Positions 5,514-47,350 of a stretch of DNA of 64,000 nt are shown here, in pieces. Source of the DNA: a virus; the UHGV virus genome UHGV-0248979. One strand, 5' to 3'. Both the position numbers and the translations under genes were made by a program. Position 1 is the first letter of the stretch. Every line of letters starts with the position of its first letter. The notes beneath the pieces are model-generated. The model was given only the letters and a program-made list of their open reading frames with translations. It did no database searches and was not told the DNA's origin.

Positions 5514-5580
5514 GTTCTCCTAAAATGGTTTCGTTAAGTGAGAGTAACTGAACTCTCACCTAAGTAATATATATCTGAAA
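5514..5580 (-). promoter_or_regulatory. conserved AT-rich box plus 5' leader hairpin cassette (putative phage promoter/leader)
   Basis: TCAGATATATATTAC box followed by GTGAGAGT-loop-ACTCTCAC hairpin then RBS; about 65 bp near-identical to 43040..43107. Confidence 0.4.
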
Positions 5581-8838: not shown

Positions 8839-9576
8839 TTACGCGGTTTTAATTAACAGCAGATAGTCCTTCGTAATCTCAGCACAACTCCACCCTCTCA
8901 TCGTGGCGATTTTACGAAGATCAATTTTCTCGTGATATTTCAATAAGGGATCGTCTGAGTTAATCTCAACCAGGTGGGTGGCTTTAGAAATCGTTTCCAC
9001 ATCTGGGATCTGTTTTGCTAAGTCGGATGCAATCAGTTCAATAACGCGGTAACCCTTTAACACAGAAACATAGATGCGCAAACCATATAGCGTGCCCTCG
9101 TCTTCTAATGGACAAAGATCGATGCCGGGTCCAAGCAGTGATAACTCGACGTTATCGGGAAGGTTTTCTGCATTTCGGAGTAACCCTATCCCATTTCTAA
9201 ACAGAGGGAAGTAAGAGAATAGTGGTGGTAAAGCCCAACCGTTCCCAATAAGCACATCATCGATACTAGTAGGCGTGTTCGCAAGAAGACGAATGTGGTC
9301 AGCCACAACTTCAAGTTCGGCATCACTGATCAACTTATAGATTAACATGACACTGGTTTCGGTATTAATAACGAAGAAGACGCGGTTGGCGTAACTGCCT
9401 ATCACGTATTCGTCAATCATACAGTCGATAACGTCAGTGTCTGGATAATCTTCAGGTTTAATTGTTCCAGCATCGATTAACTTAGCAGGTTGCGATTGTT
9501 TTAATAGTTCGTTAACAACAGTAGAAGAAAGTTCTAAACTGGTGTTAGTAAAGATATCGTCTAATAATTCTCTCAT
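8839..9576 (-). CDS. hypothetical protein, tandem paralog family
   Basis: N-terminus MRELLDDIF and C-terminus RGWSCAEITKDYLLLI resemble neighbours. Confidence 0.5.
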   Translation of the reverse strand: MRELLDDIFTNTSLELSSTVVNELLKQSQPAKLIDAGTIKPEDYPDTDVIDCMIDEYVIGSYANRVFFVINTETSVMLIYKLISDAELEVVADHIRLLANTPTSIDDVLIGNGWALPPLFSYFPLFRNGIGLLRNAENLPDNVELSLLGPGIDLCPLEDEGTLYGLRIYVSVLKGYRVIELIASDLAKQIPDVETISKATHLVEINSDDPLLKYHEKIDLRKIATMRGWSCAEITKDYLLLIKTA

Positions 9577-9671
9577 GATTTACTCGCTAATCTCAATAAA
9601 GGGAAGTCTATTATTATGGATTGTAAAAGAGGTATAAGGAAGTCACTACGTTCCTCTGGGAAGAGTATGTC

Positions 9672-9710
9672 GGTATACTACGTATACCTCCGCTATTTAT
9701 ATCCGTATAC
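9672..9710. promoter_or_regulatory. inverted-repeat operator-like site (GGTATAC-TAC-GTATACC plus third GTATAC)
   Basis: Perfect 7-bp inverted repeat and a further CGTATAC copy 17 bp away in the 420-bp divergent intergenic region. Confidence 0.3.
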
Positions 9711-9947
9711 ATAATGCCCCCTACCCCCTACCGGTATCCCGAGTAGCAGAATAAAGGGACAGACTGTAAAATTTTAGTACCTGTTATCGGAAGGTACTAA
9801 ATGGAGTGTAGTCTTTAAGCCGTTTGTGCAGCTCATTGAGACTTTCTTTTTTTAGTAGACATGATCTGTCTCCCCAAATGGTTTAATCAATCCGTTTCGA
9901 ATGAAACGTGTCCGTAGGGGCTGAACTGGCACTTCAGTCCCTATTCA

Positions 9948-9969
9948 CTTAAGTAATATATATCTGAAA
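9948..9969. promoter_or_regulatory. AT-rich conserved box (TAAGTAATATATATCTGAAA)
   Basis: Same box as at 5561, 43089 and 47330; lies 27 bp upstream of plus-strand gene 9996 and about 370 bp upstream of minus-strand gene 8839. Confidence 0.35.
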
Positions 9970-9995
9970 TCAATTCCGATCTAAGGAACGTCCCG

Positions 9996-10961
9996 ATGGA
10001 GAAATCCAGTGTTGATTTTTTCTCAATTGGTATCGTCGCGGAAGACAAACCCCGTGGTACAGATCGGGTAAAAGTGATACCAATTGAAACTAATTTTGCT
10101 AACCCTACCGTGGTGCAATCTGTTTCTTCAGCAACTGAAAAGACACATGAAACATCTGGTGCAACAGATAACCTAACCATTAAGACGGGTAACACGATAA
10201 CAGCAAAGTGGTGGAAGTTTAACTCCAACCGAATTAATTCCCCTGACGTTAAACGAGAAGATTACGTTATCTTGTTACGTTTGGGGAAAACCGATATTTA
10301 TTTTTGGATTGATCTGAACTTCGCTAACGTTAAGCGATTAGAGGATGCGGTTTACGCGTGGTCTGCTGACCCTGAAAACCAGATGGCGGATGACCTGTCC
10401 AATGCGTATGTGTTGAATATCTCGACGATTGACAAACATATCACGCTAAGAACAAGTATGGTGAACGGTGAGAAAGCGGCGTGGTTATTTCAGTTTGATA
10501 ATGCAAATGGCACGTGGCAGTGTGTTGACCACAAAGGGAATAAGTATTACATTAACTCGGTGGAAGACGATTTAGGTTTTGAGAATGCGATGCTCTCAAA
10601 AGTGAACATCAACAAAGAAGATGCGTTCATTTATTCAAAGCGTTCTATTAACCTGGAAACGAAAACGATTAATGAAAAATGCGAAGTTCGCAATACGGAA
10701 GCAGCGAAATCCGTTACGTTTAAAACACAAACCTGGTTAACGGAAGCAGGGAGTTCGACAACATTTAAAACGCCGAACTTTAAACAAGAAGGGAATGAAG
10801 CGATGTTCACCGGTAATCTGGAAATCGCTAAGAACTTCAAATACGGTGGTACGGGCAAAGGCGTCGGTGTCTTTACGGTTAAAGATGCGGTTATTTCTGG
10901 CATTACCTTTAGCGTTCACATTCACCAAGGTAAACATGGCCCGACATCACCTCCACAGTAA
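9996..10961 (+). CDS. hypothetical protein (321 aa)
   Basis: ATG at 9996 with AAGGAA RBS 7 nt upstream. Confidence 0.5.
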   Translation: MEKSSVDFFSIGIVAEDKPRGTDRVKVIPIETNFANPTVVQSVSSATEKTHETSGATDNLTIKTGNTITAKWWKFNSNRINSPDVKREDYVILLRLGKTDIYFWIDLNFANVKRLEDAVYAWSADPENQMADDLSNAYVLNISTIDKHITLRTSMVNGEKAAWLFQFDNANGTWQCVDHKGNKYYINSVEDDLGFENAMLSKVNINKEDAFIYSKRSINLETKTINEKCEVRNTEAAKSVTFKTQTWLTEAGSSTTFKTPNFKQEGNEAMFTGNLEIAKNFKYGGTGKGVGVFTVKDAVISGITFSVHIHQGKHGPTSPPQ

Positions 10962-11079
10962 TTCCCCTTTTTCTTACGTTGTTTTTATATATTGTGACCT
11001 GACGTTGGTAAAACTTTTTATCAACACTTTTCTTAAACCCATCGTTTAGTTAAGCAGGCCACTTTTTTCGCGCACTCTA

Positions 11080-11112
11080 CTCCTCCCTACGGGGAGGAGC
11101 TATCTTATGCTT
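11080..11112 (+). terminator. putative terminator
   Basis: CTCCTCCCTACGGGGAGGAG hairpin; T-tract imperfect. Confidence 0.3.
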
Positions 11113-11167
11113 CGGTTGTAACACACGTCGGTCTTAGACCACTAACCTTTTGAAATGGAGAGCTGTT

Positions 11168-11377
11168 ATGTCTATTAAAGAGTTCTCTTCTGCTGAGCAT
11201 ATTCCAGAAGAGTTTAAGAAAATCGGTAACGTTAGCGCTTTCGGCGATACCGTTGATCATGTAACTGGTAAACTGGCTGCTGAAGCCGAAAAAATTGGCG
11301 GCGACGCATTCAAAGTTATCGGTATTTCCGGCAACAACAAACTGCACGGTAACGCGATTGTCTACAAAAAAGACTAA
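11168..11377 (+). CDS. DUF1471 (BhsA/YcfR/YdgH-like) domain protein without signal peptide
   Basis: C-terminus FKVIGISGNNKLHGNAIVYKK resembles the enterobacterial BhsA family ending (ITSVTGPNTLHGTAVIYK from memory); ATG at 11168 with GGAG RBS; flanked by terminators. Confidence 0.5.
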   Translation: MSIKEFSSAEHIPEEFKKIGNVSAFGDTVDHVTGKLAAEAEKIGGDAFKVIGISGNNKLHGNAIVYKKD

Positions 11378-11380
11378 GCG

Positions 11381-11437
11381 AAAAAAAAACGTGCTACTCC
11401 TACCCTCTAAGAGGGTAGGAGGTTACTTTATTTTTTT
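11381..11437. terminator. bidirectional rho-independent terminator
   Basis: CTCCTACCCTC-TAA-GAGGGTAGGAG hairpin with A9 upstream and T7 downstream; sits between convergent genes. Confidence 0.65.
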
Positions 11438-12690
11438 CGTGCTCTAAAGCGATGCATTTCTAAATACACTTTTTCCCAGGGACCGAATGGACCAACGATT
11501 GCTTGAGCATCGTTAATCTTCTTCTGATTATACCACCGGGCTTCACGAAAGACGTAGTTTTGACTGTCGAATTCGGTGGTGTTAAATACCCACTCACCTT
11601 CCTCCCACGTAGGCCAATAACCTACCGTCTTTCCAAATCGATTATTTAAGTACCCTAATGGTTTTTCAGAATCAGGATCGGTGGGGTCCTTGAGATAACA
11701 ACGTCCCCAAACTGCGTTATGCGAAACACCCACAACTTCTTCTTCTAAATACGGATTATCTACCGTAAAGATAAAAGAGGATTCGTGCAGTAAAAGCGCT
11801 TTCAGTGTTTCAGGGTTACGAATACGTTGAACGTTGGTAGGCGATGATAAATCCCCCACACCGATGCTATCCCAGTCGTAATAACGTCGGGTCTCCAGAA
11901 CGGTCCGTGCAAGATCAAAATTCGGTAAAGAAATCATGATCGCACGGTCAGAGAAATAACCGTCCGGTGGCAACCAACGTAGCAATCCGCCTATGACGAA
12001 ACCCACGGTTTTCCCCGTAATAGACTCAGGCAGCGATATCATTAACGTGGAGTAATAGTCGCGTGTAGTGTCGAGCTTGTTTAGCGTAAGGTTGGCGATT
12101 GGATAGGTTTTAACATTCCCTAGCTGACCAAAAACCATACAGCCAATATCTGGCGTACATGCTCTCCGTACGATTTTACCGGCCCCAGGCAATCGCACAC
12201 CTACGGTATCCGTCTGGTGTGGTACCCATTGACCGTTAATGTTGTACAGCACACTATTACGGTATTTGTCTTTCCACTTGTCCTCACAAACGACGACAAC
12301 GTCATCAGCATCGTCTAAGCTGAAATCTTGACTGTGATGGTACCCTGGTGGACACAGATATGTTTCGACAGGTACATCGGCATTAATTGATTGGTAATGT
12401 GCCCAACTGAATTCCAGTTTCGGCAATCCGGTCTTTAGAGTGGGAATGACGTTTCCGGCTTTTTCGTTTAACCAATCTTGTAAAGTGTCTGTTCGGTTTT
12501 GTAGTTCGGCAAGATGGTATTGACTGACTAACGTATAGTCTTTACCAAGTGCACTTAAACCGATCTCAAAGGTGTGGTAGTCTGAACACAACGTAGTTAA
12601 AGGTTGCGTGACATCGATGGCTCCCCAGGTACGGGACTCTCGAGAGAAGCCAAAAGCGCTGTCGGGTCGCACTTGATAAGCAGTAGTCAC
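11428..12690 (-). CDS. hypothetical protein (420 aa)
   Basis: ORF track; divergent from plus-strand structural block. Confidence 0.55.
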   Translation of the reverse strand: MTTAYQVRPDSAFGFSRESRTWGAIDVTQPLTTLCSDYHTFEIGLSALGKDYTLVSQYHLAELQNRTDTLQDWLNEKAGNVIPTLKTGLPKLEFSWAHYQSINADVPVETYLCPPGYHHSQDFSLDDADDVVVVCEDKWKDKYRNSVLYNINGQWVPHQTDTVGVRLPGAGKIVRRACTPDIGCMVFGQLGNVKTYPIANLTLNKLDTTRDYYSTLMISLPESITGKTVGFVIGGLLRWLPPDGYFSDRAIMISLPNFDLARTVLETRRYYDWDSIGVGDLSSPTNVQRIRNPETLKALLLHESSFIFTVDNPYLEEEVVGVSHNAVWGRCYLKDPTDPDSEKPLGYLNNRFGKTVGYWPTWEEGEWVFNTTEFDSQNYVFREARWYNQKKINDAQAIVGPFGPWEKVYLEMHRFRARKK

Positions 12691-12759
12691 AGCTCTTTTT
12701 CCTCTATAGATTCAAGTCATAGTATGAACTTCGACGCCCACGGACTATAGGAGTAGATA

Positions 12760-40027: not shown

Positions 40028-40459
40028 TTAGCGAACGTTGTGTGCTAAGTACATCAGCGTACGAGTGTCGATGTCACGAGAAGTTTGTGACATCTGACTC
40101 AGTAACTTGTTGGCAGTAGGGTCATTGTAAACACGACTTAACCATTCGTCAACCATTTCTGGTACAGTGTCGACAAGAAGCGGATAGTTAAGATTTTCCA
40201 GTGTGTATTCAACGAATTCGTGCATCAGATTCTGGTCACGATGCATAGTGTCACCTAACTCACCTACAGGGTACTCTTCGCGAGGACGTTTACCCCAGCT
40301 ACAGATGTGCATGTAGTTAGTATTCACAATTTCCTGATATTCTTCTAACTTAACTAAATCGAAGTCAGTATTTGGACGACAGAAACCTGCTAGAACGCCC
40401 AAAGCAATCGGATTGTTACGAATGTAGTTACGGATTTCATCATTTAATACGAAAAACAT
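40028..40459 (-). CDS. hypothetical protein (143 aa), paralog of 41320..41748
   Basis: Similar length and N-terminal ..IRNYIR.. motif to 41320 gene. Confidence 0.5.
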   Translation of the reverse strand: MFFVLNDEIRNYIRNNPIALGVLAGFCRPNTDFDLVKLEEYQEIVNTNYMHICSWGKRPREEYPVGELGDTMHRDQNLMHEFVEYTLENLNYPLLVDTVPEMVDEWLSRVYNDPTANKLLSQMSQTSRDIDTRTLMYLAHNVR

Positions 40460-43039: not shown

Positions 43040-43107
43040 TATTCTCCTAAAATGGTTTCGTTAAGTGAGAGTAACTGAACTCTCACCTAGGTAATATATA
43101 TCTGAAA
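43040..43107 (-). promoter_or_regulatory. conserved AT-rich box plus 5' leader hairpin cassette
   Basis: Near-identical (1 mismatch) to 5514..5580. Confidence 0.4.
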
Positions 43108-47305: not shown

Positions 47306-47350
47306 GAGTGAACGTAAATTTCACTCTCTCCTAGGTAATATATATCTGAG
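47306..47350 (-). promoter_or_regulatory. AT-rich box plus leader hairpin (variant)
   Basis: CTAGGTAATATATATCTGAG box plus GAGTGAA-loop-TCACTC hairpin upstream of gene 46425..47276. Confidence 0.4.

What the first reader, a model, noticed from the sequence alone, without database searches (positions are those of the whole stretch)
11168..11377. Host-like BhsA/YcfR (DUF1471) domain gene lacking a signal peptide, insulated by terminators
The C-terminal half closely resembles the enterobacterial BhsA/YdgH stress-protein family ending, but the phage copy has no signal peptide and sits alone on the plus strand between terminators, like a moron acquired from the host.
Basis: partly seen in the sequence, partly recalled or inferred. 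Interest (0 to 1): 0.5.

Follow-up and report, generated by a model that had tools for sequence, protein, structure and literature searches.

The report
Signal-less DUF1471 gene, jumbo-phage baseplate module
A giant (SPN3US-like) phage carries a small, conserved copy of an enterobacterial periplasmic stress-protein domain that has lost its export signal and sits among the baseplate genes; databases already annotate the gene, so it is a modest finding.

Summary
Window 11168-11377 (+) encodes a 69-aa protein that is one complete DUF1471 (YdgH/BhsA/McbA) domain: Pfam 38.2 bits against a cut-off of 27, and a predicted fold that matches solved DUF1471 structures. It has no signal peptide, and none is possible, because only 6 in-frame codons lie upstream. 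Stable hairpins flank the gene on both sides.

The "recent host moron" reading is only partly right. The window is an SPN3US-like jumbo phage. The gene is the ortholog of SPN3US gp172 (PHROG 8068) and occupies the same slot, between the baseplate gene gp173 and the tail gene gp171, in about 60 phages of at least five genera. It is under purifying selection and has the phage's own GC content. The slot is empty in the related Vibrio phage pVa-21, so the capture was probably ancient.

Three or four divergent alleles are distributed against the phylogeny of the flanking genes, which indicates cassette exchange. Published mass spectrometry detects gp172 in SPN3US virion preparations and labels it "Tail", but detection is erratic.

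GenBank and RefSeq already annotate orthologs as BhsA/DUF1471. Function is unknown. The best guess is a late-expressed protein loosely associated with the tail.

The parts
11168..11377 (+). CDS of 69 aa. It is a single DUF1471 (YdgH/BhsA/McbA-like) domain without a signal peptide, the ortholog of SPN3US gp172 and a member of PHROG 8068.
   Evidence: - Pfam 38.2 bits against a cut-off of 27.
- PHROG 8068 matched over its full length, E 4.5e-32.
- AlphaFold2 pLDDT 89.
- Foldseek top hits are the DUF1471 structures 4evu, 2m2j, 2ma8, 2jna and 2noc.
- Syntenic orthologs in relatives.
11157..11162 (+). Shine-Dalgarno sequence GGAGAG, 5 nt upstream of the ATG.
   Evidence: Read directly from the sequence. 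GGAG/GAGG is aligned at the same place in all 12 relatives.
11106..11110 (+). TATGC motif, the candidate phiKZ-type (non-virion RNA polymerase) promoter and initiator. The inferred transcription start is G11109, giving a 59-nt 5' UTR.
   Evidence: - TATG(C/T) follows the upstream hairpin in all 12 relatives, about 45-75 nt before the ATG.
- TATG is the phiKZ late-promoter consensus, with the G as +1 (PMC4666361).
- This is an inference: no transcript data exist, and the composite motif is not enriched in the window.
11080..11099 (+). GC-rich hairpin (8-bp stem, tetraloop) that separates the upstream unit from the DUF1471 unit. It resembles a terminator but has a weak T tail in this phage.
   Evidence: - Found by the terminator scan.
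- -17.6 kcal/mol, z -4.1.
- It is the only consensus stem RNAalifold finds across relatives, with 2 compensatory pairs.
- Relatives have a strong T-run after it.
11397..11421 (.). Bidirectional intrinsic terminator between the convergent genes gp172-like (+) and gp171-like (-). It has an 11-bp stem, with an A-run at 11381-11389 on one side and a T-run at 11431-11437 on the other.
   Evidence: Found (z -4.8 on the plus strand, -4.4 on the minus strand). The stem sequence CTCCTAC.. is conserved in most relatives examined.
11058..11069 (+). Invariant block GCCACTTTTTTC in the gp173-gp172 spacer. Its function is unknown.
   Evidence: Invariant, or with a single change, in 9 relatives. The exact sequence occurs only once in the 64-kb window.
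10974..10998 (+). Second promoter-like element (TTAC, 8-16 nt, then TAT(A/T)TGTGAC-like) just after the gp173 stop codon.
   Evidence: TAC and part of the TGAC-like element are invariant or conserved in the alignment of 9 relatives. This rests on inference only.
9996..10961 (+). Upstream neighbour: baseplate assembly protein, the SPN3US gp173 homologue.
   Evidence: PHROG 3216 'baseplate assembly protein', E 9e-114. SPN3US_0173 is tabulated as Tail.
11428..12690 (-). Downstream convergent neighbour: the homologue of SPN3US gp171, an essential tail protein and possible baseplate or fibre protein.
   Evidence: PHROG 3337, E 3e-144. It is 76-80% identical to SPN3US-type and Erskinevirus proteins. 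PMC5105663 reports gp171 as essential and tail-associated.

Best explanation
**Shown**
- The gene is the ortholog of SPN3US gp172.
- It is a real, expressed, purifying-selected 7-kDa protein made of one DUF1471 domain that starts where the mature (signal-cleaved) bacterial proteins start.
- It therefore stays in the cytoplasm, where jumbo-phage tails assemble.

**Inferred: origin.** An ancestor of the SPN3US-like clade, which infects Enterobacterales, captured a host periplasmic DUF1471 gene. The gene landed in the gap between two convergent baseplate or tail genes, and the export signal was lost.

**Inferred: expression.** The gene is transcribed as its own short unit from a phiKZ-type TATG promoter just after an upstream hairpin. 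Transcription ends at a bidirectional terminator, so the protein would be made together with the neighbouring tail genes.

**Inferred, weakest step: function.** The protein associates loosely and in low copy number with the tail or baseplate. The particle would then carry an envelope-acting domain to the outside of the next host cell. The protein would act during adsorption or penetration rather than as a cytoplasmic stress protein.

**Allele exchange.** Several divergent alleles have been exchanged between phage lineages as a cassette, as is typical of host-interaction modules.
For: **Domain and fold**
-. All allele types score 43-68 bits on Pfam PF07338.

**No signal peptide**
-.
- In a search of 1.84 billion representative proteins, the four best hits are 68-78 aa with the domain starting at residue 1. 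Most of the other 87 are about 80-90 aa with the domain starting near residue 30.

**Synteny and distribution**
- The gene sits in the baseplate module of all examined relatives.
- Neighbours are baseplate or tail proteins.
- Both the window protein and canonical BhsA, used as tblastn queries against 50,697 phage records, hit only this locus of this clade.
- The slot is empty in Vibrio phage pVa-21.

**Selection and composition**
- dN/dS 0.05-0.28 within allele types, and GC equal to the genome's.

**Allele exchange**
- ChrisDB vs Caitlin: flanking genes 84-85% identical, gp172 49%.
- SPAsTU vs EC001: flanking genes 75-84%, gp172 43%.
- Caitlin vs EC001: gp172 78%, flanking genes 61-64%.

**Regulatory anatomy**
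- Conserved across relatives, with TATG matching the phiKZ late promoter.

**Protein detected in SPN3US**
- CsCl-purified wild-type virions: 4 unique peptides, 6 spectra, 81% coverage, 0.86 spectra per kDa. Neighbouring tail proteins are comparable (gp168 1.08, gp169 1.41).
- Labelled 'Tail' in PMC7411985 Table S2.
Against: **Virion membership is not secure.** In PMC7411985 Table S2, peptide-spectrum matches (PSM) for gp172 were:
- 13 in the crude pellet.
- 6 in wild-type virions.
- 3 in am59-supD.
- 2 in tailless heads.
- 0 in tailed am59-supF particles.
- 0 in three purified prohead-plus-tail samples, where gp171 gave 23-39 PSM and gp173 gave 3-27 PSM.

The authors themselves say its status needs more work and that a 7-kDa protein may be lost from gels.

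**Other weaknesses**
- No transcript mapping exists for this clade. The composite motif TTTAC-N10-16-TATGC is not enriched in the window: 3 found, 1.28 expected.
- Monophyly of the phage alleles has only 37/100 bootstrap support on 66 columns, so repeated capture cannot be excluded.
- No molecular function is known for any DUF1471 protein, so the envelope-acting step is pure inference.
Confidence: 0.4

Rival explanations
1. It is a non-structural late (or middle) cytoplasmic protein, a domesticated moron. It acts inside the infected cell, and its appearance in virion preparations is adventitious co-purification of an abundant small soluble protein.
For: - Spectral counts are highest in the least purified sample (13 PSM) and zero in purified prohead-plus-tail samples. 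The protein is also seen in tailless heads (2 PSM).
- It forms its own transcription unit, insulated by hairpins.
- The slot also accepts other small genes: Wellington has two extra ORFs there.
- Alleles are exchanged independently of the flanking structural genes.
Against: - All characterised DUF1471 proteins work in the periplasm. YdgH without its signal peptide does not complement (PMC11705850), so a cytoplasmic role would be a new activity for the fold.
- The gene holds a fixed position inside the baseplate and fibre module across at least five genera.
- Coverage was 81% in CsCl-purified wild-type virions, and the authors assign the protein to the tail.
Confidence: 0.33
2. It is a small assembly factor or chaperone for the neighbouring baseplate or fibre proteins (gp171, or gp168-170). 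It would be present transiently on assembly intermediates and mostly absent from finished particles.
For: - It lies directly beside an essential tail and possible fibre protein and the large fibre or baseplate paralogs.
- Erratic, low-level detection in particles is what is seen for assembly chaperones.
- Its small size and late-type context fit this role.
Against: - The allele type does not co-vary with gp171 or gp173.
- It also does not co-vary with the length class of the gp170 homologue. The long form occurs with type A and type B alleles, and the short form occurs in Huxley (A) and Caitlin (B).
- The related pVa-21 assembles homologous proteins without it.
- No DUF1471 protein is known to act as a chaperone.
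Confidence: 0.12
3. It acts in the periplasm or at the surface of the infected cell, for example in superinfection exclusion or outer-membrane tightening like BhsA, and reaches that compartment by a non-Sec route.
For: The family signature residues are retained. Family members are described as periplasmic proteins implicated in stress responses, biofilm formation and cell-envelope maintenance.
Against: - There is no signal peptide, lipobox or transmembrane segment in any of the 12 orthologs, and no room for an N-terminal extension.
- No export partner is encoded next to it.
Confidence: 0.05

Closest known systems
Salmonella phage SPN3US gp172 (SPN3US_0172; PHROG 8068; RefSeq NC_027402 product 'DUF1471 domain-containing protein')
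   Same: - Same length (69 aa).
- Same slot between gp173 and gp171.
- Same DUF1471 domain without a signal peptide.
- Same hairpin, TATG and bidirectional-terminator layout.
   Different: It is only 44.8% identical. The window carries the 'type A' allele, which is 72-80% identical to the alleles of SPAsTU, ChrisDB, Stratton and Asesino. SPN3US carries 'type B'.
Enterobacterial BhsA/YcfR and its paralogs YbiJ, McbA, YhcN and YahO (Pfam PF07338, NCBIfam NF047859 and others)
   Same: - Same domain and signature (KIGxVS...G.N.LHG.A..YK).
- BhsA is the best-scoring NCBIfam model.
- The phage protein begins where the mature bacterial protein begins.
   Different: - It has no signal peptide.
- It is 31% identical to BhsA and at best 49% identical to any bacterial relative.
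- It is below every equivalog cut-off (46.8 bits against 90).
- It is encoded by a lytic jumbo phage inside a tail gene module.
Solved DUF1471 structures: YdgH C- and N-terminal domains (4EVU, 2M2J), SrfN (2MA8, 2JNA) and YahO (2NOC, 2MA4)
   Same: The predicted beta-beta-alpha-beta-beta fold superposes with TM 0.71-0.78 normalised to the query. The sequence hit to YahO has E 0.0015.
   Different: These are periplasmic or secreted monomers, and sequence identity is only 17-26%. The RcsF periplasmic domain (2Y1B) superposes as well or better (TMq 0.87), so the fold on its own is not specific.
Phage morons (independent promoter-gene-terminator units inserted between conserved genes, classically in lambdoid phages)
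   Same: It is a single gene with its own putative promoter and terminators, inserted between two conserved genes that are adjacent in a relative. Its origin is apparently the host.
   Different: - It is in a lytic, nucleus-forming-type jumbo phage, so there is no lysogen to benefit.
- The promoter resembles the phage polymerase's TATG type rather than sigma-70: no sigma-70-like site lies upstream.
- There is no compositional anomaly.
- It is fixed across at least five genera rather than sporadic.

Membership tests
DUF1471 / YdgH_BhsA-like domain (Pfam PF07338) | Profile score at or above Pfam's gathering cut-off | tested here: met
   38.2 bits against a cut-off of 27, E 1.4e-9, profile positions 2-55 of 55. 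Orthologs of every allele type score 43-68 bits.
DUF1471 / YdgH_BhsA-like domain (Pfam PF07338) | Compact alpha/beta DUF1471 fold | tested here: met
   The AlphaFold2 model has pLDDT 89. Best Foldseek PDB matches are 4evu, 2m2j, 2ma8, 2jna and 2noc, with TM 0.71-0.78. The structure is predicted, not solved.
DUF1471 / YdgH_BhsA-like domain (Pfam PF07338) | N-terminal Sec signal peptide and periplasmic location, stated for the family in PMC11705850 | tested here: not met
   There is no hydrophobic N-terminus (maximum Kyte-Doolittle score 0.4 over 10 aa). Only 6 extra in-frame codons are possible. Nearly all full-length bacterial relatives exceed 2 and carry AxA sites.
DUF1471 / YdgH_BhsA-like domain (Pfam PF07338) | Taxonomic restriction to Enterobacterales | tested here: inconclusive
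   The window's host is unknown. All phage relatives that carry the gene infect Salmonella, Escherichia, Erwinia, Cronobacter or Proteus. A Vibrio-infecting relative lacks it.
BhsA (NCBIfam NF047859 equivalog) | Score at or above the curated equivalog cut-off (90 bits) | tested here: not met
   46.8 bits, and 31% identity to a protein scoring 136.6 bits on that model. It should not be named BhsA.
PHROG 8068 / SPN3US gp172 orthologs | Full-length profile match and conserved position between the gp173 and gp171 homologues | tested here: met
   E 4.5e-32 over residues 1-69 against profile positions 1-70 of 70. Synteny holds in SPAsTU, EC001, SPN3US, Stratton, ChrisDB, Asesino, Huxley, Phobos, CR5, Derbicus and Caitlin. 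In Wellington two extra small genes share the slot.
Moron | Own promoter and terminator | tested here: inconclusive
   The terminator hairpins are real and conserved. The promoter is inferred from a conserved TATG only, and the extended motif is not enriched.
Moron | Absent from the same site in related phages | tested here: met
   In Vibrio phage pVa-21 the gp173 homologue (42% identical, E 1e-69) and the gp171 homologue are adjacent, with no DUF1471 ORF in the 318-bp gap.
Moron | Atypical composition or recent transfer | tested here: not met
   GC is 43.0%, against 44.1% for the window. The best bacterial identity is 49%.
Virion (tail) structural protein | Reproducible presence in purified particles | not testable with these tools
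   The only evidence is published mass spectrometry on the SPN3US ortholog. It was detected in wild-type virions and labelled Tail, but it was absent from several purified tail-containing samples.

The most novel reading that the evidence does not exclude
The signal-less DUF1471 domain is a baseplate-borne mimic of a host periplasmic envelope protein. The virion would deliver it to the outer membrane or periplasm from outside. There it would bind the same envelope partner as BhsA-type proteins, or as the RcsF-like fold, to ease penetration or to blunt envelope-stress signalling. Its alleles would be swapped among phage lineages under host-interaction pressure. If true, this would give the first molecular handle on what DUF1471 domains bind.
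Probability: 0.1. Interest if true: 0.6.

Novelty: new member of a known kind. Interest (0 to 1): 0.3.

Why it matters
**What adds interest**
- Among 50,697 phage records, DUF1471 is detectable only at this one locus of this one jumbo-phage clade.
- It always lacks its export signal.
- It lies inside the baseplate module.
- It shows allele exchange between lineages.

If the protein does ride on the tail, it would be a clear case of a host periplasmic domain co-opted into a virion. It could also help reveal the still unknown molecular function of the DUF1471 family.

Tried and rejected
- **Near-identical DNA search.** Megablast of the locus against phage records found nothing. The phage is a new species or genus. 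The closest proteins are about 80% identical, and one 99%-identical metagenome contig exists.
- **Word-indexed protein search.** It returned only 7 close phage-type relatives. The exhaustive representative search was needed to reach bacterial members.
- **Literature.** Searches for BhsA with SPN3US or with jumbo phages returned nothing. The time-resolved SPN3US infection proteome (PMC6384053) is not held, so the expression class could not be read from data.
- **General promoter test.** The composite motif TTTAC-N10-16-TATGC is not enriched in the window: 3 found, 1.28 expected. The late-promoter call therefore rests on conservation at this locus only.
- **5' UTR and spacer RNA.**
  - The 5' UTR as a whole is not unusually structured (z +1.1).
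  - Rfam gives only sub-threshold noise.
  - RNAalifold supports only the terminator stem.
- **Antisense ORF.** The ORF at 11105-11347 (-) is 80 aa, longer than the real gene. It was rejected because it has no family hit and because the plus-strand frame is the one conserved under purifying selection.
- **Phylogeny.** The phage alleles form one clade in the point-estimate tree, with only 37/100 bootstrap support. The first attempt timed out.
- **Chaperone co-variation.** Allele type was compared with gp171, gp173 and the gp170 length class. No co-variation was found (and the annotation calls).

Full report
**1. What is in the sequence**

Window 11168-11377 (+) is an ATG-to-TAA reading frame of 69 codons, MSIKEFSSAEHIPEEFKKIGNVSAFGDTVDHVTGKLAAEAEKIGGDAFKVIGISGNNKLHGNAIVYKKD. 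A GGAGAG ribosome-binding site lies 5 nt upstream, and the finding's coordinates are exact.

The first possible in-frame start is TTG 11150. It would add only six non-hydrophobic residues.

An antisense ORF at 11105-11347 (-) is longer, at 80 aa. It has no family match, so the plus-strand frame is the gene.

**2. Domain identity**

| Library | Result |
|---|---|
| Pfam PF07338 (YdgH/BhsA/McbA-like, DUF1471) | 38.2 bits, gathering cut-off 27, E 1.4e-9; residues 17-67, profile 2-55 of 55 |
| NCBIfam BhsA | 46.8 bits, curated equivalog cut-off 90 |
| NCBIfam YbiJ, YahO, McbA, YhcN | Ranked below BhsA, none near its cut-off |
| PHROG 8068 (function unknown) | Full-length match, E 4.5e-32 |

The protein is a DUF1471 domain but should not be called BhsA.

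An AlphaFold2 model built from 8 sequences has mean pLDDT 89 and a beta-beta-alpha-beta-beta topology.

Foldseek against the PDB returns the solved DUF1471 domains first: YdgH 4EVU and 2M2J, SrfN 2MA8 and 2JNA, and YahO 2NOC, with TM 0.71-0.78. The RcsF periplasmic domain also appears, with TM 0.87. Sequence search of the PDB finds YahO at E 0.0015.

**3. No signal peptide**

The N-terminal 35 residues contain no hydrophobic stretch. The maximum 10-residue Kyte-Doolittle mean is 0.4.

An exhaustive HMMER search of 1.84 billion representative proteins with a profile of the phage sequences found 91 proteins.
- The four best are 68-78 aa, with the domain starting at residue 1.
- Most of the others are about 80-90 aa, with the domain starting near residue 30.
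- Those full-length bacterial proteins carry hydrophobic N-termini (mostly above 2) ending in AxA-type sites.

BLASTP alignment to a canonical BhsA (136.6 bits on the equivalog model) starts within the last residues of its signal peptide, so the phage protein corresponds to the mature protein. Identity is 31%. The best bacterial relative is 49% identical over 53 residues.

**4. Genomic context**

The window belongs to an SPN3US-like jumbo phage.
- Megablast finds no near-identical phage.
- The flanking proteins are 76-80% identical to those of Erskinevirus and Seoulvirus phages.
- A metagenome contig (ENA ERZ28577814) carries a 99%-identical copy in the same arrangement.

The upstream neighbour, 9996-10961 (+), is a baseplate assembly protein (PHROG 3216, E 9e-114). 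The downstream convergent neighbour, 11428-12690 (-), is the homologue of SPN3US gp171. SPN3US gp171 is an essential, tail-associated, possible baseplate or fibre protein (PMC5105663). The large fibre or baseplate paralogs follow.

**5. Distribution**

tblastn with the window protein hits 60 phage records at E up to 1e-3. All are 224-251-kb jumbo phages of Salmonella, Escherichia, Erwinia, Cronobacter or Proteus, except the 197-kb STsAS record, and each has one copy.

Annotation tables confirm the same slot in SPAsTU, EC001, SPN3US (gp172), Stratton, ChrisDB, Asesino, Huxley, Phobos, CR5, Derbicus and Caitlin. In Wellington two extra small genes share the slot.

Several records already name the gene BhsA or DUF1471: SPAsTU, Stratton, Kwan, Wellington, pEa_SNUABM_43 and RefSeq SPN3US.

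A canonical BhsA used as a query against all 50,697 phage records finds only this locus of this clade. The match never covers the signal-peptide part.

In Vibrio phage pVa-21, the homologues of gp173 (42% identity, E 1e-69) and gp171 are adjacent and convergent. The 318-bp gap between them contains no such ORF.

Together with the reported restriction of DUF1471 to Enterobacterales (PMC11705850), this supports capture from a host by an ancestor of the clade that infects Enterobacterales.

**6. Evolution**

*Selection and composition.* Within allele types dN/dS is 0.05-0.28. GC is 43.0%, against 44.1% for the window. The gene is functional and fully ameliorated, not a recent arrival.

*Allele types.* The orthologs fall into divergent types: A (window, SPAsTU, Stratton, Asesino, ChrisDB, Huxley), B (SPN3US/EC001, Caitlin), C (Phobos, CR5, Derbicus), and a Wellington type. 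Their distribution contradicts the flanking genes:

| Pair | Flanking genes (gp171, gp173) | gp172 |
|---|---|---|
| ChrisDB vs Caitlin | 84-85% | 49% |
| SPAsTU vs EC001 | 75-84% | 43% |
| Caitlin vs EC001 | 61-64% | 78% |

The small cassette has therefore been exchanged between lineages.

*Single or repeated capture.* All phage alleles form one clade in a neighbour-joining tree with 45 bacterial relatives, but bootstrap support is only 37/100 on 66 columns. Single capture is favoured mainly by the shared position, length, N-terminus and regulatory layout. It is not proven.

**7. Regulatory anatomy**

*Upstream hairpin.* The hairpin at 11080-11099 is stable (-17.6 kcal/mol, z -4.1). It is the only consensus structure found across relatives. 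In relatives a strong T-run follows it. In the window the tail is weak.

*Candidate promoter.* A TATG(C/T) motif follows the hairpin in all 12 sequences, at window 11106-11110. In phiKZ, TATG is the necessary late-promoter element of the non-virion RNA polymerase, with the G as +1 (PMC4666361).

I therefore infer a phage-polymerase promoter and a 59-nt leader. This is inference. No transcript data exist, no sigma-70-like site is present, and the extended motif is not enriched in the window.

*Downstream terminator.* The 11-bp stem at 11397-11421 has an A-run on one side and a T-run on the other. It folds equally well on both strands (z -4.8 and -4.4), so it is a bidirectional terminator for the two convergent genes. 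It is conserved in most relatives examined.

**8. Published protein evidence for the ortholog**

SPN3US gp172 was detected in CsCl-purified wild-type virions with 4 unique peptides, 6 spectra, 81% coverage and 0.86 spectra per kDa. It was described as the smallest virion protein, of unknown function and low abundance. It was missing from a gp47 mutant, possibly for technical reasons (PMC5694885).

A later data table labels it "Tail", but the peptide-spectrum match (PSM) counts are erratic (PMC7411985 Table S2):

| Sample | gp172 PSM |
|---|---|
| Wild-type virions | 6 |
| am59-supD | 3 |
| Tailed am59-supF particles | 0 |
| Tailless heads | 2 |
| Crude pellet | 13 |
| am59-sup0-SB (lower CsCl band) | 0 |
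| Three purified prohead-plus-tail samples | 0 each |

In those three purified samples gp171 gave 23-39 PSM and gp173 gave 3-27 PSM.

The protein is certainly made during infection. Stable membership of the tail is not established.

**9. Interpretation**

*Identity.* The identity is secure. This is an ortholog of SPN3US gp172: a host-derived DUF1471 domain that has lost its export signal and is fixed in the baseplate module of one jumbo-phage clade.

*Mechanism.* The mechanism is not known. My best reading (0.4) is a protein co-expressed with the tail genes and loosely associated with the tail or baseplate, which acts at the envelope of the next host.

The rivals are:
- a non-structural cytoplasmic protein that co-purifies (0.33);
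- an assembly factor for neighbouring tail proteins (0.12), weakened by the lack of allele co-variation and by pVa-21 doing without it;
- export by an unknown route (0.05).

It is wrong about recency, and probably wrong about the kind of function.

**10. Novelty**

Novelty is low. The family is in PHROGs, and the domain is annotated in GenBank and RefSeq. The product was reported in virion proteomes, although those papers call it a protein of unknown function.

What appears not to have been pointed out:
- the clade-exclusive, always signal-less state;
- the empty slot in pVa-21;
- the allele exchange.

Noticed in passing
window 11058-11069 (and the spacer 10962-11167): An invariant block, GCCACT(T/A)TTTTC, is the best conserved element of the gp173-gp172 spacer in 9 relatives. 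The exact sequence occurs only once in the window. In some relatives it forms the 5' arm of an AT-rich palindrome, with a compensatory change in Caitlin (ACTATTTTCGCAAATAGT, against ACTTTTTTCGCAAAAAAGT in ChrisDB). It could be a protein-binding site or part of a roughly 100-nt non-coding transcript ending at hairpin 11080-11099. There is no Rfam match.
   Followed up: partly
window 10974-10998: A second promoter-like element (TTAC, a spacer, then TATATTGTGAC) lies directly after the gp173 stop codon. Its TAC and TGAC parts are conserved in relatives, and in some of them it resembles the TTTTTAC-N-TATG arrangement seen in front of gp172. Two tandem small transcription units may exist in this spacer.
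   Followed up: partly
window 5564-5576, 9953-9965, 43091-43103, 47335-47347 (all minus strand): The 13-mer AGATATATATTAC occurs four times exactly, against 0.06 expected. All four copies are on the minus strand, and at least three lie in intergenic DNA upstream of minus-strand genes. From memory, it resembles the AT-rich TATATTAC early-promoter consensus of phiKZ-like phages. It is probably this phage's early (virion RNA polymerase) promoter.
   Followed up: partly
window 9577-9995: This is a 419-bp stretch without a convincing ORF, at the place where SPN3US-like relatives carry a 105-aa gene (the gp174 homologue). tblastn with the SPAsTU and Stratton proteins finds nothing here. The adjacent 245-aa ORF at 8839-9576 (-) has no PHROG match. 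The region left of the baseplate gene is variable in this phage.
   Followed up: partly
window 12691-12759: The 69-bp gap between the divergent genes for the gp171-like (-) and gp170-like (+) proteins contains one TATG motif on each strand (ACTATGA and AGTATGA). They could be back-to-back late promoters of the phiKZ type.
   Followed up: no
L008 (Erwinia phage Wellington) 1115-1273 and 1787-2347: In Wellington the same slot holds two additional small genes (52 aa and 186 aa, both hypothetical) on either side of the DUF1471 gene. The convergent gap between gp173 and gp171 therefore looks like a recurrent insertion site.
   Followed up: no
window 11130-11140; relatives: A small stem-loop in the 5' leader of the DUF1471 gene keeps pairing through different sequences: GGTC/GACC in the window, AGAC/GTCT in SPAsTU, Stratton and CR5, and GGCA/TGCC in ChrisDB and Huxley. 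It is only 4-5 bp, and the leader as a whole is not unusually stable (z +1.1).
   Followed up: partly
Phage records MH221128.1 (STsAS) 40107-40313 and MT799840.1 (JN03) 159477-159674: The ortholog is present in the DNA but has no annotated feature in these public records. In the window, a longer antisense ORF (11105-11347, 80 aa) could also mislead gene callers.
   Followed up: no
Fold search of the model: The periplasmic domain of the outer-membrane stress sensor RcsF (2Y1B, 2L8Y; also chain B of the IgaA periplasmic-domain entry 9BIY) superposes on the phage DUF1471 model as well as or better than the DUF1471 structures do (TMq 0.82-0.87). This hints at a shared fold between two envelope-stress protein families.
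   Followed up: no
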